A stretch of DNA of 64,000 nucleotides from IMG/VR virus record IMGVR_UViG_3300042401_001180; one strand, written 5' to 3'. Below the pieces are notes generated by a model. The model did not search any database and was not told where the DNA came from. It was given only the letters and a program-made list of their open reading frames with translations. Origin of the DNA: a virus. Taxonomy: Duplodnaviria; Heunggongvirae; Uroviricota; Caudoviricetes. Below are positions 45,151 to 60,847 of this stretch, piece after piece (positions within the stretch are counted from its first letter, which is position 1; the number at the start of each line of letters is the position of its first letter). Position numbers and translations under genes: made by a program.

Positions 45151-45152
45151 AA

Positions 45153-45185: not shown

Positions 45186-45405
45186 ATCGTCAAATGTACG
45201 ACGCCTGTTGGGTACTTACAGGTGAACCGATGATTACCGTCTTTCGACGTATTCGGGGGTACATCCCTCCTTTTCAATCACCCCACTAACCCCTAAAGGT
45301 TGGTGGATGACTTTTTATATGGAAAATCATAAAACCATTATCTCAATTCGATACATCAAAGATATATGTATTATATATAAATTCCAAACTTTTTAGTAAA
45401 TATTT
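45186..45405 (-). ncRNA. ORF-free, GC-enriched structured region (candidate ncRNA, function unknown)
   Basis: Nested hairpins (CGTCaaatgtaCGACG, CCGAtgattaccgtctttcgacgtatTCGG, GGGatgtaCCC). No ORF. Sits between the terminator and tRNA-Met. Confidence 0.3.
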
Positions 45406-45409
45406 TTTG

Positions 45410-45483
45410 TGGTCCTTGTTGGAATCGAACCAACCACCTACTGATTATGAGTCAGTTGCTCTAACCGAATGAGCTAAAGGACC
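45410..45483 (-). tRNA. tRNA-Met(CAT) (or Ile-LAU; anticodon CAT)
   Basis: Acceptor GGTCCTT/AAGGACC, D GCTC/GAGC, anticodon stem ACTGA/TCAGT with loop CTCATAA, T stem GTTGG/CCAAC. Confidence 0.8.
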
Positions 45484-45644
45484 TAATTGGTGGAGATTTG
45501 ATGCCAACGTATGATCACCCCTACGTCTCGTTTCTGCGTATTCGGTACTCCACCTTTGTAAGTTCCTCTTACTTACACCCCCATTCGTGGACTTTCCGAC
45601 ATCCCAATGGTTTTTACCGTCCTATCGGAGTCAGGTAACCGCTG

Positions 45645-45722
45645 ATGTCAGGGTGGGATTCGAACCCACAATGAACAACCTTTTTACGGGACTTGGTACC
45701 ATACCTCATTACACTCCTGACA
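45645..45722 (-). tRNA. atypical tRNA-like element (perfect 7-bp acceptor and T-arm, no canonical anticodon arm)
   Basis: Acceptor TGTCAGG/CCTGACA and T-arm GTGGG-TTCGAAT-CCCAC. The 44-nt internal region does not give a 5-bp/7-nt anticodon hairpin. Confidence 0.35.
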
Positions 45723-45887
45723 AACTTCGACTCTTCAGCTTTCTACTCCCAGCACCGAGGAATTGTATATAACTTAGCCCATCTCACCGCTGTGTGGGAA
45801 CTGAAGTTTATCGTCTTTTTCTTATCGTAAAGATAAACAATATAAATAATATAAACAATAATGGTGTCATAATTTTTTAAGTTTTTG

Positions 45888-45987
45888 TAGTCAGGACAGG
45901 ATTCGAACCTGTATGGTAATTTTTTCAGTACCTCCACAACCCATGGATTTACGTGGTCTTTGCGTCTACCAATTTCGCCACCTGGCT
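45888..45987 (-). tRNA. atypical 100-nt tRNA-like element (Leu-like 5' half GCCAGGTGGCGAAATTGGTAGACGC)
   Basis: Acceptor AGCCAGG/CCTGACT (one mismatch), Leu-like D-arm, T-arm ACAGG-TTCGAAT-CCTGT, variable-arm-like hairpin GGTActgaaaaaatTACC. The anticodon region is non-canonical with a 15-nt loop. Confidence 0.35.
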
Positions 45988-46320
45988 ATGTTGAGGGTGA
46001 GAAGCCCTCTGTGTTGTTGACTAGTTTAACCTACCCTAAAGTCATTTTAGGTACAACCGTTTTCTGTTTACTATGATGGTAAAGCTTTCACCACAAGGGC
46101 CGGTCTTCGTCAGCTCAATATCTATCCCTTTCTCAAGGGAACAACACAATATTGTTGATAGTGTTGGGATACCCGTCTCGTCCCAATCTTAACTGCATCG
46201 TCTGAGTTTTCTCAGGGCCCTCGGCAGGGGGTGCTGAATTCCTGATCCACTCAGGATTGTCGACATCCGTTGAGATGGGGGAAAACCACTATCAATATTT
46301 TCAAAGAACTTTTTTCCTTA
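45988..46320 (-). ncRNA. GC-enriched ORF-free structured region (candidate ncRNA; tmRNA or other not confirmed)
   Basis: ~330 nt with local GC well above the genome background (e.g. cagggccctcggcagggggtgctgaattcctgatccactcaggattgtcgac). Immediately downstream of promoter repeat copy 1. No ORF. Confidence 0.35.
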
Positions 46321-46380
46321 TTTGTTTAACAAAGATATGTAATCTATTTCAATCTACCAAATCTTTTTTTACTTTTTTTT
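46321..46380 (-). promoter_or_regulatory. repeated strong promoter module, copy 1 (A-rich UP-like tract, -33 TTTG, -7 TATCTTTG)
   Basis: Minus strand aaaaaaaagtaaaaaaagaTTTGgtagattgaaatagattacaTATCTTTGtt. Near-identical to 47640..47700. Confidence 0.55.
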
Positions 46381-46546
46381 GTGGGACCCGCTCCCCACAC
46401 TGAACTTGTACTTCGTTCTATTAAGCGTTTTTTTCAGTTTTTTTAACCAATCAGTATTCGTGTTAGTTTTAACAAATTTAAATCTTCCTGATTCGCAAGT
46501 TCCTGATAAAACTTCTCTCATCATTCATTTGTATTAATTGTTTATT

Positions 46547-46619
46547 TGGTGGACACTGTGGGAATCGAACCCATACGATCTGATTGCAAATCAGTCGACC
46601 TGCCGTCGGCATCAGGCCC
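46547..46619 (-). tRNA. tRNA-like element with encoded CCA; anticodon loop contains TTGCAA (Cys-GCA or Ala-TGC); acceptor stem does not pair
   Basis: T-arm ATGGG-TTCGATT-CCCAC and a 3' end AGTGTCC-A-CCA. The 5' region GGGCCTG... is not complementary. Possible pseudo-tRNA or part of a larger RNA. Confidence 0.3.
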
Positions 46620-46624
46620 ATTTG

Positions 46625-46696
46625 TGCGGGTAGAATGAATCGAACACTCATCTCCACATTGGAAGTGTGGAGTAATAACCATTATACGATACCCGC
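46625..46696 (-). tRNA. tRNA-Gly(TCC)
   Basis: Acceptor GCGGGTA/TACCCGC, anticodon stem CCACA/TGTGG with loop CTTCCAA, T-arm GAGTG-TTCGATT-CATTC. Confidence 0.8.
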
Positions 46697-46702
46697 TTAT
46701 TG

Positions 46703-46795
46703 TACTGACGGTTGGATTCGAACCAACGTTTTAAACTTACCGCTACAGGCATAGATGATATAAGCATCCACTGGTACGTCAGCATAATCGTCAGT
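46703..46795 (-). tRNA. atypical 93-nt tRNA-like element (perfect acceptor ACTGACG/CGTCAGT and T-arm; candidate anticodon hairpin GGATG-CTTATAT-CATCT; 25-nt variable region)
   Basis: Folding gives anticodon TAT with one GU pair, an aberrant D-arm and a very long variable region. Confidence 0.35.
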
Positions 46796-46867
46796 CTTTC
46801 CTGACCGTCACCCCCAACCCACAGGTATGAACCCGTATCGTAGTAAAGCTTGGTTGGCTATTAGTTG

Positions 46868-46939
46868 TTGCAGGAGAAGGGTTCGAACCTCCGACCTCAA
46901 GGTTATGAGCCTTGCGAGCTACCACTGCTCTATCCTGCG
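46868..46939 (-). tRNA. tRNA-Met(CAT), initiator-like (C1xA72 mismatch)
   Basis: Acceptor CGCAGGA/TCCTGCA with a C1-A72 mismatch, D GAGC/GCTC, anticodon stem CAAGG/CCTTG with loop CTCATAA, T-arm GGAGG-TTCGAAC-CCTTC. Confidence 0.7.
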
Positions 46940-46960
46940 ATATACCATTTGTAGTTTAGT

Positions 46961-47000
46961 AGTTGACTCAAACTCTCGTTTCACCATCTTGAGTCAACAG
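46961..47000. other. perfect 10-bp inverted repeat hairpin (GTTGACTCAA-n17-TTGAGTCAAC)
   Basis: Read directly from the sequence. A second imperfect hairpin GGGAGTAGG...CCTACCCCC lies at 47075-47120. Confidence 0.5.
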
Positions 47001-47120
47001 GTTAATGCACTTTACGAGTTTCCCGTTTCTTACAACCACAATATTTTTATTTCAATGAACTTCTTCTGTCTTCACGGGAGTAGGACACCAACCTCTAACT
47101 TCCTACCCCCGTTCTCTGTC

Positions 47121-47165
47121 TTACAAAGATATGTAATCACTTTTGATTTGCCAAATTTTTATTGA
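47121..47165 (-). promoter_or_regulatory. repeated promoter module, copy 2 (-33 TTGgcaaatcaaaagtgattacaTATCTTTG)
   Basis: Shares the TATCTTTGTAA -7 region and an upstream A-tract with copies 1 and 3. Confidence 0.5.
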
Positions 47166-47655
47166 ATAAAACTTCCCCTTCTTTCATATATTCCTTTTTC
47201 ACTTTTTCAATCAAGGATTTTAAAGCAGTGTTACCTTGTGCTGTTTTTTTAAGATCCTCAAGTTTAGGGTTACCTTTAAAACCAACCTTAGTATAAGACG
47301 TTCCGTTTTCTTTACCCCACACAATGTTAGTTAAACACAATTTGTCGATTTTCTTTTGTTCCTTTTCTTTTTCTTTCTCGAATAAAAGATTATCAATAAC
47401 TGAATCGAGTGTTTGTGGATAATCAAATTCTTTGGGTAAAGTTTTACAATAGTTATAAACCTCGTTTAAAACTTTAGACATACCTTCATAAGGTTGAACA
47501 TTTGTATTACCACCGTGTCCGTCATTTTGAGCATATGCAGTTTTTTTACCGTTTATAAAAACATCAGCCATAAAACAAGTAGTTTCTTCGCTAAACATTT
47601 TGTTAATCTTTACATTTTTAAGTTCTATTTTCATAATGTTTTTTTTGTTTATCAA
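47137..47655 (-). CDS. hypothetical protein (172 aa)
   Basis: ORF downstream of promoter copy 3. Confidence 0.5.
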   Translation of the reverse strand: MINKKNIMKIELKNVKINKMFSEETTCFMADVFINGKKTAYAQNDGHGGNTNVQPYEGMSKVLNEVYNYCKTLPKEFDYPQTLDSVIDNLLFEKEKEKEQKKIDKLCLTNIVWGKENGTSYTKVGFKGNPKLEDLKKTAQGNTALKSLIEKVKKEYMKEGEVLFNKNLANQK

Positions 47656-47700
47656 ATGTAAGTAATCTATTTCAATCTACCAAAACTTTTTTTACTTTTT
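47640..47700 (-). promoter_or_regulatory. repeated promoter module, copy 3
   Basis: Minus strand aaaaaaaagtaaaaaaagtTTTGgtagattgaaatagattacTTACATTTGat, about 90% identical to copy 1. Confidence 0.5.
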
Positions 47701-47706
47701 TTTCTG

Positions 47707-47790
47707 TAGTCCGGAAGGGACTTGAACCCTTAATCCCTCATGGGAATTTGATTTTAAGTCAAACGTGTATACCAATTCCACCACCGAACC
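47707..47790 (-). tRNA. tRNA-Leu(TAA)
   Basis: Acceptor GGTTCGG/CCGGACT (two GU pairs), anticodon stem TTTGA/TCAAA with loop CTTAAAA, long variable arm TCCCatgaGGGA, T-arm AAGGG-TTCAAGT-CCCTT. Confidence 0.75.
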
Positions 47791-47867
47791 ATTTTACCAA
47801 TATGTCAAAGAACCCTTCTTGTTTGTTCTACAAATATAAAACTTTTTTTCTATTCGCCAAACACCTA

Positions 47868-47900
47868 AAACAAAAAAACCCCTCTTTGTTAGAGAGGGGC
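47868..47900 (-). terminator. rho-independent terminator (minus strand)
   Basis: Minus strand CCCCTCTCTaacaaAGAGGGG followed by TTTTTTTG. Confidence 0.6.
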
Positions 47901-48075
47901 TTCAAAATTTATTATATAATTAATTTATCATACCATCTCCTTATAGGAACGATCCTCAGCTATCGCCAATCCGCCTAATAATATGATATGTAAATTTTTC
48001 ATTTGCGTTTTTATTTGTTTTGTTATAAATATATGTAACTTTTCAAAAGTGTCAAGTTATTTCATATTTTTTTAA

Positions 48076-48447
48076 TTACCCCCATCTTCCTAACCATTGC
48101 ACAACTTCTTCAGCTCCGTCAGATGAATTACGTTCAGGTGTTTGATCTTCTTTACGTCCAAATCTAGAGCTTTCATAATAAACCTTATCGTCTTTGTGTT
48201 TCGCATCTGAGTCTTGAACTCTATATGTCCCGTTATCATTCAAATAAATTCTATATTTGGTTCCATCCAAATTCAACCAATTTTTATTTAACGGCCAACT
48301 ATATTCAATATCATTTTTTCTCAATGTACGAGCCATTAAATCTAACGGGTTTTTTGGCATATCTCTATCCATTCCAAACCCTTCTTTAATCACTTTTTCG
48401 ATAACATCAATTAATTGTGATTCTGTAAATCTGACAGTTTTTTTCAT
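48076..48447 (-). CDS. hypothetical protein (123 aa), N-terminal MKKTVRFTESQLIDVIEKVIKE family motif
   Basis: ORF. Confidence 0.5.
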   Translation of the reverse strand: MKKTVRFTESQLIDVIEKVIKEGFGMDRDMPKNPLDLMARTLRKNDIEYSWPLNKNWLNLDGTKYRIYLNDNGTYRVQDSDAKHKDDKVYYESSRFGRKEDQTPERNSSDGAEEVVQWLGRWG

Positions 48448-48466
48448 TATATATTATTTATATTTT

Positions 48467-49090
48467 TTATGCAAATTCTTCATCCTCAAAGTCCTCAAAC
48501 TCATCAAAAGGATCCTCACGTCTTTTTGTTATTATCGTTCCTTCACGATCGATTTTACTACCAGATTTGAATGTGTCTTTTGGTAATTTTCTATAATTTT
48601 CAGGTTTATAATCTTCAGGGTGTCTTTTTTTTTGAATAAAGTCGTCCCAACCTTCATCTAATTCTTCATCTCTTCCTTTTGTTTTTGCAAATGCTTTCTT
48701 TAAATCATTTACAGAATGTCCACCAATTGAATCGTATGGTTCATCTTCATCAGCAAAGCCTTCTTTTTCTAATAAATATTCAATATCGTACGCCAATTCA
48801 TCATAATTATAATCATGTAATACGTCCACAATATAATACTCATCCATTTCATTAATAGCATCAATTGACATTCCAAGTTCGTTTTCCAAGATATCTCTTG
48901 CTTCTTCAATTAAATCTTGAAGTTCTTGTTCACCTCTATCAGTCTCACCCCACTCTTCATCTTGTTGTTGTTCTTCATCACCATAGTATGGATCATACAT
49001 ACTTCTGTCTTTATAGTCATCGTTTTCTTTAATAACACGTTTAACAATACGTGCTAAATCCGATTCTGTTAATCTTATAATTCTTTTCAT
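48467..49090 (-). CDS. hypothetical highly acidic protein (start revised to MKRIIRLTESDLARIVKRVIKE)
   Basis: Track ORF trimmed to the Met carrying the family motif. D/E-rich body. Confidence 0.5.
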   Translation of the reverse strand: MKRIIRLTESDLARIVKRVIKENDDYKDRSMYDPYYGDEEQQQDEEWGETDRGEQELQDLIEEARDILENELGMSIDAINEMDEYYIVDVLHDYNYDELAYDIEYLLEKEGFADEDEPYDSIGGHSVNDLKKAFAKTKGRDEELDEGWDDFIQKKRHPEDYKPENYRKLPKDTFKSGSKIDREGTIITKRREDPFDEFEDFEDEEFA

Positions 49091-49100
49091 TATATATTTT

Positions 49101-49607
49101 TTAGTCTTCAATATTATCTAGTAAATCTACTATTTTATCCAACGACCTTTCTAACGCATTAAGATTTTTTATCGTTGCGTCGTCTTCAACCATTTCTTCT
49201 AACTCTCTAACTTTATCATAAATTTCACTTAGTTTGTTTAGTAATGATTCAAGATCAATATCATAATCTTCAAAATCACTTTTACGTAATTTCATATCTC
49301 TTTTTTCAAATGAAGAAACCAATTGTTTTAAAATACTCAAAGTTTCTCTAAGATCTAAAAAATCATCCATTAATACACTCGCAACTTTATATTGTGCATA
49401 TTCAAAAGAATCTCCTTTTAACATCGATTTAAACTTACCAAACCCAATCATTAGTTTACTAATCATCCCAAAAAGACCTGTCGCACCTTTAGAAGCGATT
49501 CTTCTATTTTTCATTTCTTTTTCAATGGATTCATATCCACCTTCATTCATTACACGTTTAACAATTCTTGTTAAATCGGATTCTGTTAATCTTACAATTT
49601 TTTTCAT
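49101..49607 (-). CDS. hypothetical protein (168 aa), N-terminal MKKIVRLTESDLTRIVKRVMNE family motif
   Basis: ORF. Confidence 0.5.
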   Translation of the reverse strand: MKKIVRLTESDLTRIVKRVMNEGGYESIEKEMKNRRIASKGATGLFGMISKLMIGFGKFKSMLKGDSFEYAQYKVASVLMDDFLDLRETLSILKQLVSSFEKRDMKLRKSDFEDYDIDLESLLNKLSEIYDKVRELEEMVEDDATIKNLNALERSLDKIVDLLDNIED

Positions 49608-49641
49608 AATTTTTTATTTTATATATAAATAGTCTATTAAT

Positions 49642-50586
49642 TTAAAAATCAATTCTTCCACTGAAATTTTCTAACTTGGTACATTCCCTCACTTCAACAA
49701 AATCGTCTTCCATATCAACAGATTCTCTTCTTTCTTCAACCGTTATGTCATTATCATCAAAATGATTTACATATACCTCAACGTTAAACGGTATTAGTTC
49801 ATCATCTTCTTCAATACTATTATAGTGTTCTAATGATATAAATTCTCCCTCATATTTTAAAAATCCATCACCTAACGTCACATTAACACTTCTTCTTATA
49901 CTATACTTCAAATCACTTGAGTCTAAATTTCCATCACCATCACAACTCCCACAACCATACTCACCATGTCCGGCACATTCTTCACACGAAAAATTTCCAT
50001 CACCATCACAATTAAAGCACTCTAAATTCCCTTTACCACTACAATCTCTACACTTTTCCGTACCATCACCATCACAATGAAAACATTCGACTTCTATTTC
50101 ATCCCCCTCATCATCTTCTTCTGTTTCAGTACCTTTACCATCACAGTAATGACAATCATCGATCCCTTCACCTGAACAAGTATCACAATCTATAGTACCA
50201 TCACCATCACACGAATCACAATCAATTCTACCATTACCATCACAATTCCCACAATGTTCACTTCCTGTACCATCACAATCATCACATTCAGCTTGTATAT
50301 GTACGGTATCTTCATATAAATCAATAATTGATGTATGTAAATTCATAAGAATCCCCTCTAACGCGGATAATTGGCTTTTTCTATTTAAAATAAAAAACGT
50401 AGCAATTAACACTTTAATTTTTTCTGGGTTACTACTTGTTTTGGATAATAATAGTTTGGCGAAATGATCAGTACTCATACACTTTTTAATATCACGAATT
50501 CCGATGAATCTATCTCCCTTTTCGCTTTTTAATAAATCTGCAATATTTTTTGATATTGAATATATTTTTTTAAATTCAGGTGTCAT
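49642..50586 (-). CDS. CxxC-repeat (DnaJ zinc-finger-like) acidic protein
   Basis: About 14 tandem C-x-x-C-(D/S)-G-x-G units (CDDCDGTG, CGNCDGNG, CDSCDGDG, CDTCSGEG, CHYCDGKG, CFHCDGDG, CRDCSGKG, CFNCDGDG, CEECAGHG, CGSCDGDG). Confidence 0.55.
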   Translation of the reverse strand: MTPEFKKIYSISKNIADLLKSEKGDRFIGIRDIKKCMSTDHFAKLLLSKTSSNPEKIKVLIATFFILNRKSQLSALEGILMNLHTSIIDLYEDTVHIQAECDDCDGTGSEHCGNCDGNGRIDCDSCDGDGTIDCDTCSGEGIDDCHYCDGKGTETEEDDEGDEIEVECFHCDGDGTEKCRDCSGKGNLECFNCDGDGNFSCEECAGHGEYGCGSCDGDGNLDSSDLKYSIRRSVNVTLGDGFLKYEGEFISLEHYNSIEEDDELIPFNVEVYVNHFDDNDITVEERRESVDMEDDFVEVRECTKLENFSGRIDF

Positions 50587-50626
50587 ATTTATAAATAGTA
50601 TTATAAAATAAAAAAACGTGTATTAT

Positions 50627-50974
50627 TCATACACGTTTCACTAACTCTGTTGGAACCAATCTTCTTAAAGGTATTCCGTAATTTGAAATAAACCAATCAA
50701 GAAGTAACCCTTCAGTTTGATCATCAAAATATCCTTCAATATCATTTATTAGTTCCATTGGACAATTCAAATCTCTACCGTGTCCAATATTATTAAAATA
50801 GAAAAATACAAAATATGTTATTTTAGTTTTACTATCCTTTAAATAAAATGTTATAGTATCCTCATTATAATCGTAACCTAACTTTAAATTATTTAATTGG
50901 GGATAAAACTTATCAATATAATCTGAAAAGGATTTTTCTAAACTCATAGTTGTTGAATTTGAATCATAATCCAA
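50627..50974 (-). CDS. hypothetical protein (115 aa)
   Basis: ORF. Confidence 0.45.
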   Translation of the reverse strand: MDYDSNSTTMSLEKSFSDYIDKFYPQLNNLKLGYDYNEDTITFYLKDSKTKITYFVFFYFNNIGHGRDLNCPMELINDIEGYFDDQTEGLLLDWFISNYGIPLRRLVPTELVKRV

Positions 50975-51237
50975 TCTACTTCTCCTTCCGATAAGTTACC
51001 TTTAACACCATCAGTTATATGTGTATCATAAGTAATATCATATTTTTTTTCATCCCCAAACAAAACAGCAATTTCCCACTCATTTTCATTTGATGTGTAA
51101 CTACCATAACCTCTATCACTATATGGTGTTTTATATCTTACAACAGAAATACCGTAACCATTAGGAAAAAATAATATTCCGTGTAACCCTTCACCAAAAG
51201 AATGGGGTTTAAATGTGATATCTTTAAATGATTTCAT
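50944..51237 (-). CDS. hypothetical protein (97 aa)
   Basis: ORF. Confidence 0.45.
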   Translation of the reverse strand: MKSFKDITFKPHSFGEGLHGILFFPNGYGISVVRYKTPYSDRGYGSYTSNENEWEIAVLFGDEKKYDITYDTHITDGVKGNLSEGEVDWIMIQIQQL

Positions 51238-51406
51238 AATTAATTAAATAAATATTTTTTGTGTTTTAACTTTCTATTATATAGATTCTTTGGTGTCTCA
51301 ACTCTTGACACAAATCTCCCATCAAAAAATCCCGCCTCAAGTTGATCCTTTCTTACCTGAGTTCTTTTCATTCTATGTTGGTCATATGTTTTCATCTTGT
51401 TTTTTT

Positions 51407-51820
51407 TTACAAAGATATGATTTTTTTTAAATTATCCCTTTCTTGATCTCGTTTTTTAATTGTTTCTCTTTTATCGTATAGTTTTTTACCTCTACCAATA
51501 ACAATAACCATTTTTATTAATCCCTTGTCGTTGGTGAATATTTTATATGGTACAATTGTTAATCCTTTATCCAATCGTTTACTGATGTCCTTTATTTCCT
51601 TTTTATTCAAAAGTATTTTAATGTCTCGTTTCTCGTCTGTTGAAGTTATGTTGATGTTTCTAACGTACATTTCATTATTTTTTAAATAACAATATGTATC
51701 GACAATGCTAACCTTATTATTTTTTATGGATTTAACCTCATTACCTACCAATACAACACCGCATGTGTATTTTTCAATAATCTCATACTCAAAACCTACC
51801 TTTTTGTTTGTTATTAACAT
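51407..51820 (-). CDS. smpB: SsrA-binding protein SmpB homolog
   Basis: Residue pattern NKKVGFEYEIIEKYTCGVVLVGNEVKSIK...SIVDTYCYL...RKLLL..KEI..L.....GLTIVPYKIF.....IKMVIVIGRGKKLYDKRETIKKRDQERD matches the conserved SmpB fold signature (EVKS, GKKxxDKR, basic tail). Confidence 0.7.
   Translation of the reverse strand: MLITNKKVGFEYEIIEKYTCGVVLVGNEVKSIKNNKVSIVDTYCYLKNNEMYVRNINITSTDEKRDIKILLNKKEIKDISKRLDKGLTIVPYKIFTNDKGLIKMVIVIGRGKKLYDKRETIKKRDQERDNLKKIISL
51408..51417 (-). promoter_or_regulatory. Bacteroidetes-type -7 box
   Basis: Minus strand ATATCTTTGT. Confidence 0.35.
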
Positions 51821-51833
51821 TGTTTAATTTTTT

Positions 51834-51914
51834 GTACCCCCGGAGAGACTCGAACTCTCACGCCCTTCGGCATCAGATCCTAAATCTGACATGTCTACCA
51901 TTCCATCACAGGGG
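51834..51914 (-). tRNA. tRNA-Leu(TAG)
   Basis: Acceptor GCCCCTG/CGGGGGT, anticodon stem TCAGA/TCTGA with loop TTTAGGA, long variable arm, T-arm GAGAG-TTCGAGT-CTCTC. Confidence 0.7.
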
Positions 51915-51923
51915 CATTTATTT

Positions 51924-51995
51924 GAGCTCAGGGAGGGATTTGAACCCACATACCAGGCGTTTGCAGTGCCGGACCTTACCAATCGGACACCTGAG
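51924..51995 (-). tRNA. tRNA-Cys(GCA)-like (short anticodon stem)
   Basis: Perfect acceptor GCTCAGG/CCTGAGC and a T-arm TTCAAAT loop. Loop CTGCAAA is closed by a 3-bp GGC/GCC stem. Confidence 0.45.
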
Positions 51996-52001
51996 CATAT
52001 A

Positions 52002-52457
52002 TTAACGGCAGTGATGATCTGCCGCTCTTGTTGCAATTTGGTTGTCAGGTTTAATATTTGTTTTATACCCCAATGACGTTGCCCAACCAACAACTGGTTG
52101 TACAAGTTTTGAACTAAAGTGTTTTTCTTCACTATTATAATCCAAATCAATCTCAACCTTAACTTTTACTTTTTGAGTTAACCATTCGGCAACCTCAATT
52201 GAATAATCAGCTTCATTCCAAAGACGCGTCCATTTGTCTTTTATTTTTTTTACTTTTTGTTTGTGTAGGATATAGTGAACACCTCTGTTACCATACCTGT
52301 AAGCAATTACCGTAACGTATACGGTACTTCTTCTGTGGTTTTGTGAATCTGTACCGATGTGCATTTCAACCCAAGGACATTCCTTTAAAACGTCTAAGGT
52401 GTGATTTACCACATCAGGAACCGTATCACCATTAACCGTTCTAAATACTCTGTTCAT
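52002..52457 (-). CDS. hypothetical protein (151 aa)
   Basis: ORF packed between tRNA genes. Confidence 0.5.
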   Translation of the reverse strand: MNRVFRTVNGDTVPDVVNHTLDVLKECPWVEMHIGTDSQNHRRSTVYVTVIAYRYGNRGVHYILHKQKVKKIKDKWTRLWNEADYSIEVAEWLTQKVKVKVEIDLDYNSEEKHFSSKLVQPVVGWATSLGYKTNIKPDNQIATRAADHHCR

Positions 52458-52473
52458 TGTTTCTATTTTTTTG

Positions 52474-52546
52474 TGGACAGAGAGGGTTTCGAACCCCCGA
52501 CTCCAGGATCTTCAATCCTGAGCTCTACCAACTGAGCTACCTGTCC
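52474..52546 (-). tRNA. tRNA-Phe(GAA)
   Basis: Acceptor GGACAGG/TCTGTCC, D GCTC/GAGC, anticodon stem CAGGA/TCCTG with loop TTGAAGA. Confidence 0.8.
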
Positions 52547-53056
52547 TTATTTAACTTGAAACGCAAATTTCACAATACGTTTCTTTTTTACCGCATCATC
52601 CCAATTACCAATTACAACACCATCTTTAATCGTGAATGCATGTCCCTTAACAAGGATGAAGAATGTACCGACAGGGTTTTGTTTTGCAAAAGTCCCCACA
52701 GTCATTTCTCTTTTAGTCACAACACCTTTAGTTTTAACTTCGTATCTCAAACTGTGAGTCCCCATTTCACTTTTAGTTCCCAAACATTTAACTTTTTTAT
52801 AGTTAATTTGTTTTCTATCTTCAGCAATTTGTCTCATTTTTAAAACCGTACCGTAAGTCCCCTCACGATCTTTACGCCCAAAATTCTCTTTAACATATTT
52901 GTGAGCGTAGTCATATGAAACCCCAAATGAAGATGCAAATGCTCTAACAACACAATCGTTTCTTTCTCCTCTTGCGATAGGTGATTCTGCATAACCCTTA
53001 ATCGCTTCTTTCGTCGTACAATATGGTAATCCTTCTTTCATATTGTAAAGATACAA
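52547..53056 (-). CDS. hypothetical protein (169 aa)
   Basis: ORF ending at the tRNA-Phe 5' end. Confidence 0.5.
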   Translation of the reverse strand: MYLYNMKEGLPYCTTKEAIKGYAESPIARGERNDCVVRAFASSFGVSYDYAHKYVKENFGRKDREGTYGTVLKMRQIAEDRKQINYKKVKCLGTKSEMGTHSLRYEVKTKGVVTKREMTVGTFAKQNPVGTFFILVKGHAFTIKDGVVIGNWDDAVKKKRIVKFAFQVK

Positions 53057-53086
53057 AATTTTTTTTAACTGGCAAAATTAAATTTG

Positions 53087-53159
53087 CACTCCAGGAAGGG
53101 GTTGAACCTCCGACACCCGGATTTGGAATCCGGTGCTCTACCAACTGAGCTACTGAAGT
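53087..53159 (-). tRNA. tRNA-Trp(CCA)
   Basis: Acceptor ACTTCAG/CTGGAGT, anticodon stem CCGGA/TCCGG with loop TTCCAAA. Confidence 0.8.
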
Positions 53160-53223
53160 ATATGTTAAACCTGTTTTTGTTACAATAAACTAACCTTGTT
53201 TATTGATGCAATTTTTAGTTTAG

Positions 53224-53295
53224 TACCCCCTCAGAGATTCGAACTCCGACCTGACACCTTAGAAGAGTGTTGTACTTCCGTTATACGAAAGGGGT
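53224..53295 (-). tRNA. tRNA-Arg(TCT)
   Basis: Acceptor ACCCCTT/AGGGGGT, anticodon stem ACACT/GGTGT with loop CTTCTAA. Confidence 0.75.
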
Positions 53296-53468
53296 AAATA
53301 AAAGATGATGAATAACTTTATCAGGAATCTTGGCTTGGAAGCCTTCACACACCATTAGAGAGTTGGGTTGTTACATCAATACAATTAAGATTGAATACCT
53401 TTCCTTAGTGTGTACCCTTACGACACGTCTCTCCACGTCTGTCATTCTACGCATTGTATCATCTTTTG

Positions 53469-53541
53469 TACCTTCGGCGAGATTCAAACTCACATCTTGT
53501 GGTCCGTAGCCACAGGTTCTATTCTATTTAACTACGAAGGT
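53469..53541 (-). tRNA. tRNA-Arg(ACG)
   Basis: Acceptor ACCTTCG/CGAAGGT, anticodon stem TGTGG/CCACA with loop CTACGGA. Confidence 0.75.
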
Positions 53542-53548
53542 ATTGTTG

Positions 53549-53621
53549 GGAGTATACCGGGAATCGAACCCGAATCGTAGGTACCACAAACCTAAGTCTT
53601 AACCGTTAGACGATACACTCC
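53549..53621 (-). tRNA. tRNA-His(GTG) with encoded G-1
   Basis: Extra 5' G pairs with discriminator C. Anticodon stem TAGGT/ACCTA with loop TTGTGGT. Confidence 0.8.
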
Positions 53622-53639
53622 ATATAAAATTTTTCTCGG

Positions 53640-53709
53640 TACCGATAAAGGGTATCGAACCCAATGACATCCAGGATATGAGCCCGGATCGGAAACCTTT
53701 CCTATCGGT
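53640..53709 (-). tRNA. tRNA with CAT anticodon (third CAT tRNA; Met or Ile-LAU), short D-arm
   Basis: Acceptor ACCGATA/TATCGGT, anticodon stem CCGGG/CCTGG (one GU) with loop CTCATAT. Confidence 0.55.
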
Positions 53710-53715
53710 ATTTTG

Positions 53716-53801
53716 AGGAAGACATTGGAATCGAACCAAATACCCTTACGGGTACATCTCGCTTAGCAGGCGGACCCTATCGCCATCAAGGTTTATCTTC
53801 C
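53716..53801 (-). tRNA. tRNA-Ser(GCT)
   Basis: Acceptor GGAAGAT/GTCTTCC, loop CTGCTAA, long variable arm TACCCgtaaGGGTA. Confidence 0.7.
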
Positions 53802-53805
53802 GTAG

Positions 53806-53879
53806 TGCTCATAACAGGACTCGAACCTGTAACCTCCGACGTATCAGGTCGACTATCTAACCAATTGATGTATATGAGC
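53806..53879 (-). tRNA. tRNA-Ile(GAT)
   Basis: Perfect acceptor GCTCATA/TATGAGC, anticodon stem TCGAC/GTCGG with loop CTGATAC. Confidence 0.75.
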
Positions 53880-53885
53880 TTGTTG

Positions 53886-53960
53886 CGGATCAGATAGGAC
53901 TCGAACCTATTATCTTCCGCTTAACAGGCGGTAGCTTATAACCACTTAAGCTTCTGATCC
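53886..53960 (-). tRNA. tRNA-Asn(GTT)
   Basis: Acceptor GGATCAG/CTGATCC, loop CTGTTAA. Confidence 0.75.
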
Positions 53961-53964
53961 AGTG

Positions 53965-54050
53965 TGGGAGAGGAGGGACTTGAACCCCCAAGTTCCATTA
54001 CAGAAGACGGTTTTACAGACCGCTGAGCCAACCAATTGCTCAACTCTCCC
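53965..54050 (-). tRNA. tRNA-Tyr(GTA)
   Basis: Acceptor GGGAGAG/CTCTCCC, loop CTGTAAA, long variable arm. Confidence 0.75.
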
Positions 54051-54181
54051 AGTTCAGGAAAGGGGAAGATGGTTCGGTGAACATCCCCTTTTATGATTGG
54101 CGTTACTATGACAGTTAAAACTCCGACATAACTACGAACTACTGACACGTTAACGTTATATCATTCCCCAATCAACCTTTG

Positions 54182-54255
54182 TACACTCTACAGGGATCGA
54201 ACCTGTGACCTTTTGCGTATCAGACAAACGCTACTACCATCTGAGCTAAGAGTGT
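54182..54255 (-). tRNA. tRNA-Ile(GAT), second copy
   Basis: Perfect acceptor ACACTCT/AGAGTGT, anticodon stem TTTGT/GCAAA with loop CTGATAC. Confidence 0.65.
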
Positions 54256-54328
54256 GTGTTTTAGTTTCTTGGAACGAAGATAACCATTTTTTGGTAACTA
54301 TCGTTCTTTTTTACTAAATATTTTTTGT

Positions 54329-54379
54329 GACCCCTCCATTAAAAGTGGAGTGCTCTGAAACCAACTGAGCTACGAAGAC
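54329..54379 (-). pseudogene. tRNA-Lys(TTT) 5' fragment (acceptor, D-arm, anticodon arm, variable loop present; T-arm and 3' acceptor absent)
   Basis: GTCTTCG-TA-GCTC-AGTTGGTTTC-AGAGC-A-CTCCA-CTTTTAA-TGGAG-GGGTC, then no T-arm or CGAAGAC 3' strand within 150 nt downstream. Confidence 0.5.
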
Positions 54380-54384
54380 ATTAG

Positions 54385-54460
54385 TCGGGATACCAGGACT
54401 CAAACCTGGATGATGTCCACTTCCCAAAAGTGGCGACTTAGTCAATTAGTCCACATCCCG
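54385..54460 (-). tRNA. tRNA-Pro(TGG)
   Basis: Acceptor CGGGATG/TATCCCG, D GACT/AGTC, anticodon stem CCACT/AGTGG with loop TTTGGGA. Confidence 0.75.
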
Positions 54461-54471
54461 TTATTTTACAG

Positions 54472-54557
54472 AGGAGAGAGCGGGATTCGAACCCGCGGAA
54501 CCGTGAAGTTCTCCGGTTTTCAAGACCGGTGCAATAAACCAACTCTACCATCTCTCC
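54472..54557 (-). tRNA. tRNA-Ser(TGA)
   Basis: Perfect acceptor GGAGAGA/TCTCTCC, anticodon stem CCGGT/ACCGG with loop CTTGAAA, long variable arm. Confidence 0.75.
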
Positions 54558-54564
54558 TTATTGT

Positions 54565-54634
54565 TTTCCCCCAAGGGTTCGAACCTCGATTCCATGGACC
54601 AAAACCATGTGTCCTGCCGATTAGACGAGGGGAA
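54565..54634 (-). tRNA. tRNA-Gln(TTG)
   Basis: Acceptor TTCCCCT/GGGGGAA, anticodon stem CATGG/CCATG with loop TTTTGGT. Confidence 0.65.
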
Positions 54635-54678
54635 AATTTATGAAGCCAATATGTCAAAGAACTTTTTCTTTTTGTTTG

Positions 54679-54751
54679 AGGTTCCTATCAGGTTCGAACT
54701 GATGACTCCGGGTTACAAAGCCGGGATATTACCAAACTATACTAAAGAACC
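54679..54751 (-). tRNA. tRNA-Thr(TGT)
   Basis: Acceptor GGTTCTT/AGGAACC, anticodon stem CCGGC/CCCGG (one mismatch) with loop TTTGTAA. Confidence 0.6.
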
Positions 54752-54759
54752 AAATTTTT

Positions 54760-54800
54760 GGGTATAAAAAAACCCTAACTGTTTTGAGTTAGGGTCTTAT
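54760..54800 (-). terminator. rho-independent terminator (minus strand)
   Basis: Minus strand GACCCTAACTcaaaacAGTTAGGGTT followed by TTTTTTAT. Confidence 0.6.
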
Positions 54801-55136
54801 ATTTCTTTTATATTTTTAGTTAATCTTTATCAACTCATAAATGAAACTGCCCTAATATGTGACTTAAGCGTACGATACACGTTAAACGACCACTGAATGC
54901 TCGGGTTACAAATGTTCATATGTCTATTAGTTGTTTTCATCTTGTTATAAATATATCGTTGTTTCTAAAAGTTTTAATTCTTGTACAAATTTAGTTGTTT
55001 TTTTCTATTTGACAAGTGTTTTTTAAATAATTTTCTTGTTCTTCATCCAATCTACGTAAAAACACGTAGTAATCTTCTGATTCTATGAACTCGTTGTGTA
55101 TTAATTCTAATATTTCTTCCATTGTTTTTTTGTTAG

Positions 55137-55208
55137 TAGTCCCGCCTGGATTCGAACCAGGAATAGAAGATTAGAAATCTACTGTGATATCCCTTTCACT
55201 ACGGAACC
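55137..55208 (-). tRNA. tRNA-Arg(TCT), second copy
   Basis: Acceptor GGTTCCG/CGGGACT, D GTGA/TCAC, anticodon stem GTAGA/TCTTC (one mismatch) with loop TTTCTAA. Confidence 0.6.
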
Positions 55209-58658: not shown

Positions 58659-59069
58659 TCAAATTTCTTTGTACTCAATTTTTGAAATAACCACATTCAT
58701 TTCACGGTTATCAATTCCAAAATATTTTAGTTCTTGTGTTACTGCACCTAAAATACATCTTCTATAGTATCCATTAAATTTTTTAGCATATCTCTTACAG
58801 TAGGAGTTATTTATAAACCAATGATCATTACGCATATCAACAATAACATCAACCTCATAAACATATTGCTCTTGGTTATTGGAGTATCTAGTGCGTCTGT
58901 GTAGATACTTTCTAACTGATTTAATTTTAATAACTGAGTTATTTAGATCACTATCCAAATAATACCCATCATTTTGTGATGGTGTAATTAACATATTTTT
59001 AGTTAGTTTTTTAACCGACTTAATGTGTGTGTCTGATATTACCTTTCCTATTTTGTCTCCGTTTTCCAT
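58659..59069 (-). CDS. hypothetical protein (136 aa)
   Basis: ORF. Confidence 0.45.
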   Translation of the reverse strand: MENGDKIGKVISDTHIKSVKKLTKNMLITPSQNDGYYLDSDLNNSVIKIKSVRKYLHRRTRYSNNQEQYVYEVDVIVDMRNDHWFINNSYCKRYAKKFNGYYRRCILGAVTQELKYFGIDNREMNVVISKIEYKEI

Positions 59070-59105
59070 ACATCAAAGATAGAAAAAAAACTTTAATGCA
59101 CAAAA

Positions 59106-59150
59106 AAAATGGATACAAATATTATCTGTATCCATCAATTTTTTTCCTTA
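59106..59150. terminator. bidirectional rho-independent terminator
   Basis: aaaaaaaaTGGATACAaatattatcTGTATCCAtcaattttttt. Confidence 0.6.
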
Positions 59151-59159
59151 TAAGATTTT

Positions 59160-60150
59160 AAACCTAAAAATAAAAACCTGAGATTACAGTTTTTGTTGAG
59201 AACCTTTCGAGTCATTATTGTTTCTACTCTTATCCACCATCTTTTGAATGGTATTTCTCAGTGACGATTATTTAGGTGAATCACTCCTTGAGGTACTAGT
59301 TACTCTCTCATTACTCAACTCTCTTCGAGACTGCCGTCCCAACTCTTCCTTGCGGGAATAGAGGTTTTTGGTAAGAATATAGGTCAACTTGCGGTCTTCC
59401 TATGCAATGAACAGCTCATTACTATGTAGTCACCTTTCACTATTACCTGACGAACACTTTTGCTTTTTAGTTTTAGTTTTACCTTTTCCATAAAAGTTTT
59501 TGTGTTGTGGATTGATAGAAGTAGTGGTCCGTCACGGGCTTCGTTATCTTTTGAACAACGAAATACTCAACTACTCCTTGAAATGTCCCCATCTCAATAT
59601 TTCAAGACTACTTCGAGATTTAACCTTTGGTAAGGTTCAATCAAGGTTAGTAACAACACCACTTGTACACCAACATACCTTTCGGTTTTAAGTATCCTAT
59701 CATAATGGAACACGCAATAATAAAATCGGATAATCTTATTTTTTGCAATACCCCTACGAGTTATTCCTTTTGGTGTTCCCACCTCAAACTGACAACCCAC
59801 ATTGCCAATTCATCTAACCACTTTCCCTACAGCGTTGCCCTCGGTACTAAAGATTAAACGGTATCCCGCTTGTGTACTCGATCTCGACAAATCCGAAGAC
59901 TCACCAAGACGCAAATCAGTTACACTTCTGACTCACTTTATCCTACTTTCGTAGTTTATTTTAATGGACCATACACGGCCCAATGACTTAATTTAGTTTC
60001 ACACATAAAGAAAGGGAGGTGTTAAGTCTCATCTTTTAATTGTGACGACCGTTTCAGTCGGATTTAGATTTTCAAAGAACGTTTCAGGACTTTTCCTGAT
60101 TTGTTTTACAAATTTAAGTCTTTTTTTTCATTAAGACAAGTGTTTGTGAA
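59160..60150. ncRNA. ~1-kb ORF-free, GC-richer region: candidate large structured RNA / intron-like / origin element (unassigned)
   Basis: The track has only short spurious ORFs here. Composition is clearly less AT-rich than the flanks (e.g. gactgccgtcccaactcttccttgcggg). Bounded by a terminator upstream and a T-rich tract downstream. Confidence 0.3.
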
Positions 60151-60156
60151 CTTTTT

Positions 60157-60306
60157 TTTTTAAACTTTTTCTACGTACACCTCGTGTGTTCCGTATTTAG
60201 TCGCTTGAGCAGATGCAAACTCACTGTTAGGTGTGTAAAACTTCTCCCCTTTTGCTCCGTAGTAGAAAAACATTACGTTCTCCACAACTTCAGTTTCTTC
60301 ACTCAT
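60157..60306 (-). CDS. small hypothetical protein (49 aa), not in ORF track
   Basis: Manual translation MSEETEVVENVMFFYYGAKGEKFYTPNSEFASAQATKYGTHEVYVEKV. Confidence 0.3.
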
Positions 60307-60475
60307 ATTTTAAGAGTTTAAAGGTTAATATTTCAACTTATTATTAGGACGTTTCCCAATTGTTTAACAAATCTAATTATATTAAATTGTTTTGTCAAAT
60401 GTTTAAATGAAAAAAATTGATTTTTTTACGGAAGTAAATATAAATATAACTATGTTTGGTAAAATACAAAAAAAA

Positions 60476-60847
60476 TTAAATAAATTTTAATAATTTTAAA
60501 CCTAAATCTTTGTATTTACCTTTTAATGGTATTTCAAATACCATGTTACCCGGAAATTTGTAATTATTGTTGGGTAACATTAGTTTGGTGTGACCCGTAT
60601 CATCAATACCTATTAATGGGTATGGTACATTCTCCATTGTAATCATATTACTATTAATCATTGTACACTTACCAGGGTGATCCCACTGTCCTCTATTATC
60701 AACAACACATTCAAGTTCATCCATTATGTAATCCCATTCACTTTTAGATAATAAATTATCCTTTTGGATGTGGTTTTTTAACATTAACTGAACATCTTTA
60801 TTTTTTGCTAACTCTTCTTTAAGTACCCTAATAATTAAATCTTTCAT
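60476..60847 (-). CDS. hypothetical protein (123 aa) with MKDLIIRVLKEE family motif
   Basis: ORF. Confidence 0.5.
   Translation of the reverse strand: MKDLIIRVLKEELAKNKDVQLMLKNHIQKDNLLSKSEWDYIMDELECVVDNRGQWDHPGKCTMINSNMITMENVPYPLIGIDDTGHTKLMLPNNNYKFPGNMVFEIPLKGKYKDLGLKLLKFI

What the first reader, a model, noticed from the sequence alone, without database searches (positions are those of the whole stretch)
59160..60150. ~1-kb ORF-free, GC-richer block bounded by terminators: candidate large structured RNA, intron-like element or replication origin
Between the terminator at 59106-59150 and the small ORF at 60157, no ORF longer than ~60 codons exists on either strand. The three ORFs the track shows here overlap each other on opposite strands and look spurious. 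Composition shifts toward C/G with many short complementary segments. In phages, kilobase-scale noncoding islands near tRNA clusters have turned out to be large ornate RNAs (GOLLD/ROOL-type) or self-splicing intron remnants. Alternatively it could be an origin region, since an A/T-rich tract with poly-T runs follows at 60100-60180.
Basis: inference. Interest (0 to 1): 0.7.

Follow-up and report, generated by a model that had tools for sequence, protein, structure and literature searches.

The report
GOLLD giant phage RNA gene
The ORF-free block is a complete gene for GOLLD, a known ~800-nt phage RNA that assembles into RNA-only cages of unknown function; here it has its own promoter, an rRNA-operon-like leader and a small protein gene that travels with it.

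Summary
Window 59175-59985 (minus strand) is a full-length GOLLD RNA. The 3' domain matches Rfam RF02032 end to end (323 bits; gathering score 150). The unmodelled 5' domain aligns to the cryo-EM reference GOLLD env-38 (69% identity overall). It is also backed by covariation in 36 relatives: 97.9% of cells paired, 63 of 103 pairs changed on both sides, 0/500 shuffles as good. Degraded gene, intron and replication origin are not supported. Beyond the published RNA, the gene has a Bacteroidota-type promoter (60139-60109) and a ~115-nt leader. The leader holds a covarying hairpin and an invariant box, GTTCTTTGAAA, which also lies 128-180 nt upstream of 16S rRNA in Bacteroidota genomes. I infer rRNA-style (boxA) antitermination. 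A terminator follows at 59136-59108. A 48-aa ORF (60160-60306) belongs to an uncharacterised family found directly upstream of GOLLD in 51/64 related loci, and in 8/8 loci retrieved through the protein. The RNA is an ordinary member of a known family. The leader and the linked small protein are untested leads on GOLLD's biogenesis and partners.

The parts
60160..60306 (-). 48-aa small ORF, a member of an uncharacterised 45-61-aa family that sits directly upstream of GOLLD in this phage clade
   Evidence: ORF. Third-codon-position excess of substitutions. A homologue lies immediately upstream on the same strand in 42/53 loci, and in 51/64 when all family members are used as queries. 108 database clusters, all unnamed and without Pfam domains. 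8/8 protein-retrieved loci with enough downstream DNA carry GOLLD just downstream. Predicted beta-beta-alpha-beta fold, pLDDT 78.6, no significant structural match.
60109..60161 (-). A-tract (60161-60152) plus promoter motif TTG-N20-TAAATTTG (60139-60109; -7-like element at 60116-60109). Predicted transcription start about 60103-60100.
   Evidence: Conserved as cTTGaCa-N-TAAcTTTGTAAAACA in the relatives. The motif occurs 14 times in the window against 2.4 expected (0/100 shuffles), 13/14 on the coding strand. The start site itself is inferred, not measured.
60084..60099 (-). Leader hairpin UCAGG-AAAAGU-CCUGA (boxB-like position)
   Evidence: The stem covaries: AU x18 and CG x14 at the closing pair, and CAGG/CCTG, TCGG/CCGA, GAGG/CCTC across loci. 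A comparable hairpin precedes the box in L001 and in a Flavobacteriales rRNA leader, L187.
60070..60080 (-). Invariant leader box GTTCTTTGAAA (boxA-like)
   Evidence: Present in 40/42 relatives and 10/10 protein-retrieved loci. There is one other exact copy in the window, at 46299-46309, again just downstream of a promoter motif. Of 120 sampled exact genomic copies of ACGTTCTTTGAAAA, 5 lie 128-180 nt upstream of 16S on the same strand, 4 of them in Bacteroidota; about 0.015 expected, P about 6e-12.
59986..60069 (-). Variable part of the leader, with a local hairpin at 60060-60046; poorly conserved in sequence and length
   Evidence: Conservation drops to 0.24-0.43 here. The alignment shows lineage-specific hairpins. 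The MFE fold contains the 60060-60046 hairpin.
59579..59985 (-). GOLLD 5' domain (the 'cap' domain of the nanocage in env-38)
   Evidence: Aligns to env-38 from its first nucleotides. A homologue is present in 72/77 fetched loci. 21 helices and 103 pairs, 97.9% paired, 63 pairs with changes on both sides; slid controls give 35-42% paired and 10-24 such pairs; 0/500 shuffles reach the observed values.
59175..59578 (-). GOLLD 3' domain (the 'ring' domain), including the A-rich variable linker at about 59516-59453
   Evidence: Rfam RF02032, model positions 1-416 of 416, 323 bits (gathering 150), E = 1e-91. The linker is the low-posterior, low-conservation stretch. ARAGORN finds no tRNA inside it.
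59101..59136 (-). Intrinsic terminator (13-bp stem, 3-nt loop, T7 tail), about 38 nt after the GOLLD 3' end
   Evidence: Terminator scan: 6 terminator-like sites in the region against 0.8 expected, this one the strongest. Inverted repeat I1.

Best explanation
The block is the gene for a GOLLD RNA on the minus strand. SHOWN: an 811-nt core (59985-59175) has the universally conserved 3' domain and an env-38-type 5' domain, joined through an A-rich linker. Both halves are conserved and structurally constrained in more than 70 related phage loci. INFERRED FROM MOTIFS: transcription starts near 60100 from a TTG-N20-TAnnTTTG promoter of the type used across this phage. It runs through a ~115-nt leader (hairpin, then the invariant box GUUCUUUGAAA, then variable hairpins) and stops at the terminator at 59136-59108, giving a primary transcript of about 1 kb. 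INFERRED FROM HOMOLOGY: like env-38, which is 69% identical and solved by cryo-EM, the RNA folds without protein and self-assembles through kissing loops and A-minor contacts into a closed homo-oligomeric cage. Env-38 forms a 14-mer; the number here is not predictable. HYPOTHESIS: the hairpin plus box copies the boxB-boxA antitermination signal of the host's rRNA operons. It would load NusB/NusE-type factors onto RNA polymerase so that this long, untranslated, highly structured transcript escapes Rho-dependent termination and folds during transcription. The cage's biological role is unknown. Its persistent neighbours (a 48-aa protein, tRNA arrays and, in relatives, tmRNA/SmpB and a lysis cassette) point to a late-infection, translation-related role.
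For: GOLLD identity: full-length Rfam hit at 323 bits. End-to-end alignment to env-38, 531/766 identical (sequence from PMC12286853 supplement). 5'-half homologues directly next to the 3' domain in 72/77 loci. Covariation in the 5' half. Fold z-score -3.1. The inter-subunit loop hairpins are kept: the P21a loop is CGCAA in 33/42 copies and switches both inner bases together to CAUAA in 8/42, so it stays self-complementary; the P21b GGCA loop is present in 41/42; the GAAA-capped hairpin is conserved. Phage context with 21 tRNAs, and same-strand tRNAs within 5 kb in 40/74 loci. Promoter. Leader box as an rRNA-leader element. It shares the UCUUU core and position-9 purine with published rrn BoxA sequences (PMC3177189). 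BoxA on other long non-coding transcripts, CRISPR arrays including Bacteroidetes, has precedent (PMC7665894). Cage assembly of GOLLD: PMC12286853 and PMC12990946.
Against: No expression data exist: the transcription start, the 3' end and any processing of the leader are all inferred. Cage formation is extrapolated from a 69%-identical homologue, and stoichiometry is known to change with small helix differences. One GAAA-capped hairpin is 17 nt shorter here than in env-38. My copy of the env-38 sequence came out 816 nt rather than the published 833, so residue-level mapping of contacts was not possible. The box matches E. coli boxA, as I recall it, at only 8 of 12 positions. No held paper gives a Bacteroidota boxA consensus, and 115 of the 120 sampled genomic copies are not next to an rRNA gene. 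RNAalifold offers a different role for the box: pairing of CUUUG with CGAAG at the end of the 5' domain. The box is missing in L002, L051 and L034. No function for GOLLD is known.
Confidence: 0.95

Rival explanations
1. The invariant leader box is a structural part of the RNA rather than a Nus-factor site. Its CUUUG pairs with CGAAG just before the 3' domain, forming a long-range helix that closes the whole 5' domain.
For: RNAalifold predicts this 5-bp helix, and 98.9% of cells are paired. Position 149/658 shows GC x28, GU x7, AU x1.
Against: Four of the five pairs never or almost never vary, so there is essentially no covariation support. The env-38 construct folds and assembles without any leader. 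The same box recurs downstream of another promoter in the tRNA cluster and in bacterial rRNA leaders, where that pairing partner is absent.
Confidence: 0.2
2. The leader hairpin plus U-rich segment (60099-60070) is an intrinsic terminator or attenuator. It would end transcription of the upstream 48-aa gene or gate read-through into GOLLD.
For: The consensus scan flags 60099-60084 as terminator-like on both strands. The stem covaries, as a terminator stem could.
Against: It lies downstream of, not upstream of, the conserved promoter motif. The tail is AAACGUUCUUUG rather than a U-run abutting the stem. The invariance of the G and GAAA positions is not explained by termination. The stem is only 5-6 bp.
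Confidence: 0.1
3. The block is a degraded or frameshifted protein-coding gene.
Against: There are stops in all frames and the longest ORF is 68 aa. No Pfam match at E<=1. No consistent codon-phase bias in substitutions, unlike the flanking ORF. Base-pair covariation and a full-length RNA-family match explain the conservation.
Confidence: 0.01
4. The block is a replication origin or a self-splicing intron remnant.
For: An A/T-rich tract lies at one edge.
Against: No direct or tandem repeats. Cumulative GC skew declines steadily through 55-64 kb without a turn. No intron, ROOL or HEARO model matches at E<=10. There is no split host gene in the flanks. The A/T tract is accounted for as an A-tract plus promoter.
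Confidence: 0.01

Closest known systems
GOLLD RNA env-38 (Rfam RF02032; cryo-EM 14-mer nanocage, PDB 9MEE; Kretsch et al. 2025, PMC12286853)
   Same: It aligns end to end at 69% identity, with a 5' domain, an A-rich linker and a 3' domain. The CGCAA and GGCA loop hairpins and GAAA-capped hairpins are shared. Both come from environmental phage sequence near tRNAs.
   Different: The window copy has a dedicated promoter and a ~115-nt leader that the env-38 construct lacks; env-38 lies just downstream of tRNA-Met. One GAAA-capped hairpin is 17 nt shorter here. The window copy ends at its own terminator rather than abutting a tRNA. Its oligomeric state has not been tested.
Streptococcus agalactiae GOLLD (12-mer, PDB 9L0R; reviewed in PMC12990946)
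   Same: The same family and the same conserved 3' domain.
   Different: Sag GOLLD is about 700 nt and lacks P9, P11a-c and P21b. The window copy keeps the P21b-type hairpin and an env-38-like 5' domain, so it is closer to env-38.
ROOL RNA (octameric nanocage)
   Same: A large phage- or prophage-associated RNA near tRNA arrays that forms an RNA-only cage.
   Different: Its sequence and secondary structure are unrelated, and there is no Rfam ROOL match here.
rRNA-operon leader antitermination signal (boxB hairpin then boxA; NusB/NusE/NusA/NusG/SuhB complex), and boxA upstream of CRISPR arrays (PMC7665894)
   Same: The order is promoter, hairpin, then a short U-rich box with the UCUUU core, placed at the start of a long untranslated structured transcript. 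The identical 14-mer sits 128-180 nt upstream of 16S in Bacteroidota genomes.
   Different: It is encoded by a phage in front of a non-ribosomal RNA. Binding of Nus factors is untested. No boxC was looked for. The Bacteroidota consensus is not documented in the papers I could read.

Membership tests
GOLLD RNA (RF02032) | Match to the family covariance model above the curated gathering score, over the full model | tested here: met
   323 bits against 150, model positions 1-416 of 416, E = 1e-91, at window 59578-59175 minus strand
GOLLD RNA (RF02032) | A large, less conserved 5' domain directly next to the 3' domain, giving a total above 800 nt | tested here: met
   811-nt core aligned to env-38 from nucleotide 1 to its 3' end, 531/766 identical. 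The 5' half is conserved in 72/77 loci.
GOLLD RNA (RF02032) | Ornate secondary structure supported by covariation | tested here: met
   5' half: 103 pairs, 97.9% paired, 63 with changes on both sides, 0/500 shuffles as good, slid controls 35-42% paired. 3' half: fits the Rfam structure with very few non-canonical pairs.
GOLLD RNA (RF02032) | Variable, unstructured linker between the domains (sometimes holding a tRNA) | tested here: met
   A-rich, poorly conserved stretch at about 59516-59453. No tRNA inside it.
GOLLD RNA (RF02032) | Phage or prophage location, often near tRNA clusters | tested here: met
   21 tRNAs at 44369-55208 on the same strand, with phage-type genes nearby. 40/74 related loci have same-strand tRNAs within 5 kb, and 17 have one 1-14 nt after GOLLD.
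GOLLD RNA (RF02032) | Loops that make the published inter-subunit contacts (self-complementary L21a, L21b, GAAA loop) | tested here: met
   At motif level only: the P21a loop is CGCAA (33/42) or CAUAA (8/42), both with a self-complementary inner dinucleotide; the P21b GGCA loop is in 41/42; the GAAA hairpin is conserved. Residue numbering could not be transferred exactly because my copy of env-38 is 816 nt rather than 833.
GOLLD RNA (RF02032) | Self-assembly into a closed homo-oligomeric RNA cage | not testable with these tools
   Needs in-vitro transcription plus mass photometry or cryo-EM. Known for env-38 and Sag GOLLD.
rrn-type boxA antitermination leader | Short conserved box of boxA type in the transcribed leader, identical to the one in host rRNA-operon leaders | tested here: met
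   The box is invariant in 40/42 relatives. The exact 14-mer lies 128-180 nt upstream of 16S in 5 of 120 sampled genomic copies, 4 of them Bacteroidota, P about 6e-12. It shares the UCUUU core with published BoxA. That those rRNA-leader boxes act as boxA is itself an inference.
rrn-type boxA antitermination leader | Position downstream of the promoter and preceded by a boxB-like hairpin | tested here: met
   The promoter motif ends at 60109, the hairpin is at 60099-60084 and the box at 60080-60070. The layout is the same in 10/10 independent loci and in L001.
rrn-type boxA antitermination leader | Binding of NusB/NusE and resistance to Rho-dependent termination | not testable with these tools
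   Biochemical and genetic tests are required.
Group I / group II introns, ROOL, HEARO | Match to the family covariance model | tested here: not met
   No such match at the gathering score in the window, nor at E<=10 in 58900-60500.
Replication origin | Iterons or other repeat arrays, and a turn in cumulative GC skew | tested here: not met
   0 direct-repeat families and only two trivial 6-nt tandem runs. GC skew declines steadily.

The most novel reading that the evidence does not exclude
In this freshwater phage clade GOLLD is made like a miniature ribosomal RNA. A phage promoter and a copied host rrn boxB-boxA leader recruit the Nus antitermination and RNA-chaperone complex to transcribe and fold the cage RNA. 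The 48-aa protein encoded immediately upstream is a dedicated GOLLD partner, acting as cargo, cap or assembly factor. That would give the first protein handle, and the first biogenesis pathway, for an RNA nanocage whose function is still unknown.
Probability: 0.3. Interest if true: 0.65.

Novelty: new member of a known kind. Interest (0 to 1): 0.42.

Why it matters
GOLLD is among the largest bacterial and phage non-coding RNAs. It was recently shown to build RNA-only cages larger than a ribosome, yet nobody knows what it does, how it is expressed or whether it has partners. This locus adds nothing new to the RNA fold itself. The comparative set assembled around it does give three concrete, testable leads: a defined promoter and terminator, so a defined transcript; an rRNA-leader-type box suggesting Nus-dependent transcription and folding; and a small protein family that is genetically linked to GOLLD across dozens of divergent phages. 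It also suggests a host phylum (Bacteroidota), which is needed for any experimental system.

Tried and rejected
1. Protein-coding remnant: the five longest block ORFs (50-68 aa) were scanned against Pfam at E<=1 with no hits, and a codon-phase test of substitutions showed no consistent phase. Rejected.
2. Intron, ROOL, HEARO or other Rfam families at E<=10: only weak chance-level hits.
3. Origin: repeat and tandem-repeat scans and GC skew were all negative.
4. Identifying the source genome: megablast of 24 kb against the phage collection found only tRNA-sized matches. The only DNA-level relatives there are two unannotated huge phages of 634 and 642 kb.
5. Sigma-70 promoter scan: nothing in the right place and no enrichment (8 found, 10.1 expected). 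The real signal was the TTG-N20-TAnnTTTG motif.
6. Literature on a Bacteroidota boxA consensus: Arnvig 2008 is not held, and other papers give no sequence for that phylum. Exact-string literature hits were mostly rRNA-spacer PCR primers.
7. L045, L063 and L064 from the motif scan are chance matches without GOLLD and were dropped.
8. Transferring the published residue numbering of inter-subunit contacts: abandoned, because the env-38 sequence recovered from the supplement PDF is 816 nt, not 833.
9. Function of the 48-aa protein: no Pfam or PHROG family, no name in any source, and no significant fold match in the PDB, all E>1.

Full report
OBSERVATION. Between 59160 and 60150 no ORF exceeds 68 aa. 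The few ORFs of 50-68 aa overlap one another on opposite strands, and none matches a Pfam family even at E<=1. GC rises to 0.37-0.41, against roughly 0.22-0.30 in the flanks. All neighbouring genes, and all 21 tRNAs at 44369-55208, are on the minus strand, so the block has to be read on that strand.

WHAT IT IS. Rfam gives one decisive hit: GOLLD (RF02032), model positions 1-416 of 416, at 59578-59175 minus strand, 323 bits against a gathering score of 150, E = 1e-91. That model covers only the universally conserved 3' domain. Published GOLLD RNAs exceed 800 nt and have a less conserved 5' domain. In env-38 these are residues 1-420 (the 'cap' of the cage) and 421-833 (the 'ring'), with a disordered linker at 497-538 (PMC12286853). 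The remaining ~570 nt of the block therefore needed their own test.

A motif scan of viral contigs returned 75 loci, and BLAST found two huge phages. Three of the 75 were chance matches. nhmmer with the window's 5' half found a homologue next to the 3' domain in 72 of the 77 fetched loci. I took the env-38 sequence from the paper's supplement. It aligns to the window from 59985 to 59175 with 531/766 identical positions.

I then aligned 36 non-identical copies sharing 62-94% identity with the window. The RNAalifold consensus of the leader plus 5' domain has 103 pairs in 21 helices. Of all cells, 97.9% form standard pairs, against 35-42% when the partners are slid. 63 pairs show changes on both sides, against 10-24 when slid. 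None of 500 column shuffles reaches any of the five measures. The whole transcript folds better than its shuffles (z = -3.1). So the block is a complete GOLLD gene with an 811-nt core.

The loops that form the published inter-subunit bridges are kept at motif level. The P21a loop is CGCAA in 33 of 42 copies. In 8 copies both inner bases change together to give CAUAA, and no half-changed intermediate occurs. GC and AU are both self-complementary, which fits the symmetric L21a-L21a kissing contact inferred for env-38 from a GC/CG switch. The P21b hairpin is the element whose presence separates the 14-mer env-38 from the 12-mer S. agalactiae RNA (PMC12990946), and it is present here.

ENDS AND EXPRESSION SIGNALS. 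Conservation across the 34 more distant copies extends from about 60170 to 59172. It has variable islands at 60070-59991, 59910-59891 and in the linker.

The stretch 60139-60109 reads TTG-N20-TAAATTTG, and in the relatives it is conserved as cTTGaCa...TAAcTTTGTAAAACA. This pattern occurs 14 times in the window against 2.4 expected (0 of 100 shuffles). 13 of the 14 copies are on the coding strand, several directly before ORF starts. It matches what I recall as the Bacteroidota -33/-7 promoter form (own knowledge, not checked against a paper). The sigma-70 scan, by contrast, found nothing relevant. I therefore place the transcription start near 60100; this is an inference.

At the other end, a 13-bp-stem terminator with a T7 tail lies at 59136-59108, 38 nt after the GOLLD 3' end. 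In 17 related loci a tRNA follows within 1-14 nt instead.

THE LEADER. Between the promoter and the env-38-equivalent 5' end lie about 115 nt that the published construct lacks. This leader starts with a hairpin at 60099-60084 whose stem covaries. Then comes GTTCTTTGAAA at 60080-60070, which is invariant in 40 of 42 relatives. It is also present in all ten loci that I later retrieved through an unrelated route, and in the distant huge-phage copy L001, again after a hairpin.

The box has exactly one other perfect copy in the window, at 46309-46299. That copy also lies about 20 nt downstream of a promoter motif, inside the tRNA cluster. One-mismatch copies at 47813, 54662 and 47060 are also in that cluster.

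The box resembles boxA of rRNA operons. From memory, E. coli boxA is UGCUCUUUAACA. Published A. aeolicus BoxA is GGCUCCUUGGCA, and a purine at position 9 is reported as tolerated (PMC3177189). To test the resemblance, I scanned 185,579 genomes for the phage's own 14-mer ACGTTCTTTGAAAA. Four of the five are Bacteroidota (Saccharicrinis, Marinifilum, a Bacteroidia MAG and a Lake Mendota Flavobacteriales MAG) and one is Bacillota. About 0.015 such cases are expected by chance, so P is about 6e-12. The Flavobacteriales leader also has a hairpin just before the box.

My reading is that the phage has copied the host rRNA leader's boxB-boxA signal. That signal in E. coli loads NusB/NusE and partners onto RNA polymerase, suppresses Rho-dependent termination and assists co-transcriptional folding. 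It has also been found in front of other long non-coding transcripts, namely CRISPR arrays, including in Bacteroidetes (PMC7665894). This step is inference. I found no held paper linking GOLLD with boxA or antitermination.

The main rival is that the box pairs with CGAAG at the end of the 5' domain. RNAalifold predicts that helix, but it is almost invariant and therefore untestable by covariation.

A LINKED SMALL PROTEIN. The 48-aa ORF at 60160-60306 is a real gene, with a third-position substitution excess. Homologues lie immediately upstream of GOLLD, on the same strand, in 42 of 53 loci with enough DNA, or 51 of 64 when every family member is used as a query. The window's other neighbours are found in only 2-14 loci.

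A profile search finds 108 clusters, nearly all 45-61 aa, all unnamed, without Pfam domains and only from environmental assemblies. I then sampled from the protein side, using six divergent members at 33-42% identity to the window protein. All eight loci with enough downstream DNA carry a full-length GOLLD (307-343 bits) just after the gene.

The 13 GOLLD loci that lack the small gene are the most divergent ones, including both huge phages, so the link is specific to this clade. The predicted fold is a small beta-beta-alpha-beta unit (pLDDT 78.6) with no significant match in the PDB. Whether the protein binds GOLLD is unknown.

REJECTED READINGS.
- Degraded gene: stops in all frames, no family hit and no consistent codon phase.
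- Intron, ROOL or HEARO: no model match at E<=10.
- Origin: no iterons or tandem arrays and no turn in GC skew.

COMPARISON AND NOVELTY. The RNA is a canonical, env-38-like member of a family described in 2009 and solved in 2025. Freshwater phages are its original source.

What I did not find described in the papers I could search is the fixed expression module in this clade: small ORF, A-tract, promoter, hairpin, rRNA-type box, GOLLD. These features are well supported as sequence observations but untested as mechanisms. GOLLD's function remains unknown. The neighbourhood (tRNA arrays here; tmRNA, SmpB and a holin/peptidoglycan-hydrolase block in relatives) is compatible with the published suggestions of a translation-related or late-infection role, but does not prove them.

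Noticed in passing
window 45988-46298 (minus strand): A 311-nt stretch with 46% GC (genome about 30%), stops in all three forward frames and no Rfam match at E<=1. It lies directly downstream of a promoter motif (46360-46330) and the second GTTCTTTGAAAATATTG box, and directly upstream of a tRNA-like gene. Its first ~180 nt are conserved in three relatives (L025, L022, L028), with visible compensatory changes and a long closing stem. It is a candidate unclassified structured RNA.
   Followed up: partly
window 45888-45987 and 46702-46795 (minus strand): Two oversized tRNA-like genes. One is 100 nt, scored as tRNA by Rfam (34 bits) but not called by ARAGORN. The other is a 94-nt tRNA-Ile(tat). 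Both probably carry an insertion or intron.
   Followed up: no
window-wide; e.g. 7258-7228, 16242-16212, 23046-23016, 46360-46330, 47154-47124, 47683-47653, 60398-60368 (minus strand): TTG-N20-TAnnTTTG occurs 14 times (2.4 expected), 13 of them on the coding strand and often right before ORF starts. This is a Bacteroidota-type promoter repertoire and, together with the rRNA-leader box, suggests a Bacteroidota host.
   Followed up: partly
L025, L052, L033, L010, L066, L204, L205 (upstream of GOLLD): In several relatives the A-tract plus promoter module in front of GOLLD is duplicated in tandem, about 95 nt apart in L204/L205, reminiscent of the P1/P2 promoters of rRNA operons.
   Followed up: no
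L200, L203, L204, L205, L208, L209 (about 100-600 nt after the GOLLD 3' end, opposite strand); L200 3722-4156: A phage-encoded tmRNA gene (72-114 bits) lies just beyond GOLLD in six of eight protein-retrieved relatives, and one locus also encodes SmpB. The window itself has no tmRNA.
   Followed up: no
L198-L209, 0-2450 (upstream of the small ORF): A recurring block lies immediately before the small ORF and GOLLD: holin (PF23987), a 203-aa protein, a ~160-aa protein (weak Pyr_excise) and a 240-490-aa peptidoglycan hydrolase (M23, VanY or Amidase_2). In most relatives GOLLD therefore follows a lysis-type cassette. The window has different upstream genes.
   Followed up: no
L002 2712-2895: In the 642-kb huge phage the GOLLD is preceded by the same -7-type motif (TATCTTTGTAAAAG) and then by a tRNA-like sequence with a large internal insertion that neither ARAGORN nor Rfam calls. 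There is no leader box, and a tRNA starts 10 nt after the GOLLD 3' end.
   Followed up: no
window 11334-12464, 39682-41124 and 41723-43339 (minus strand): The window encodes an RNA ligase (PHROG 968, E = 8e-58) and two histidine-kinase-like proteins, one with tandem PAS domains. These are unusual cargo, typical of large phages; the RNA ligase may relate to tRNA repair.
   Followed up: no
window 59356-59348 and the equivalent position in relatives: The P21a loop switches from CGCAA to CAUAA in 8 of 42 copies, with both adjacent bases changing together. Adjacent bases cannot pair within one chain, so this is an independent hint that the symmetric inter-subunit kissing contact seen in env-38 is kept in this clade.
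   Followed up: partly
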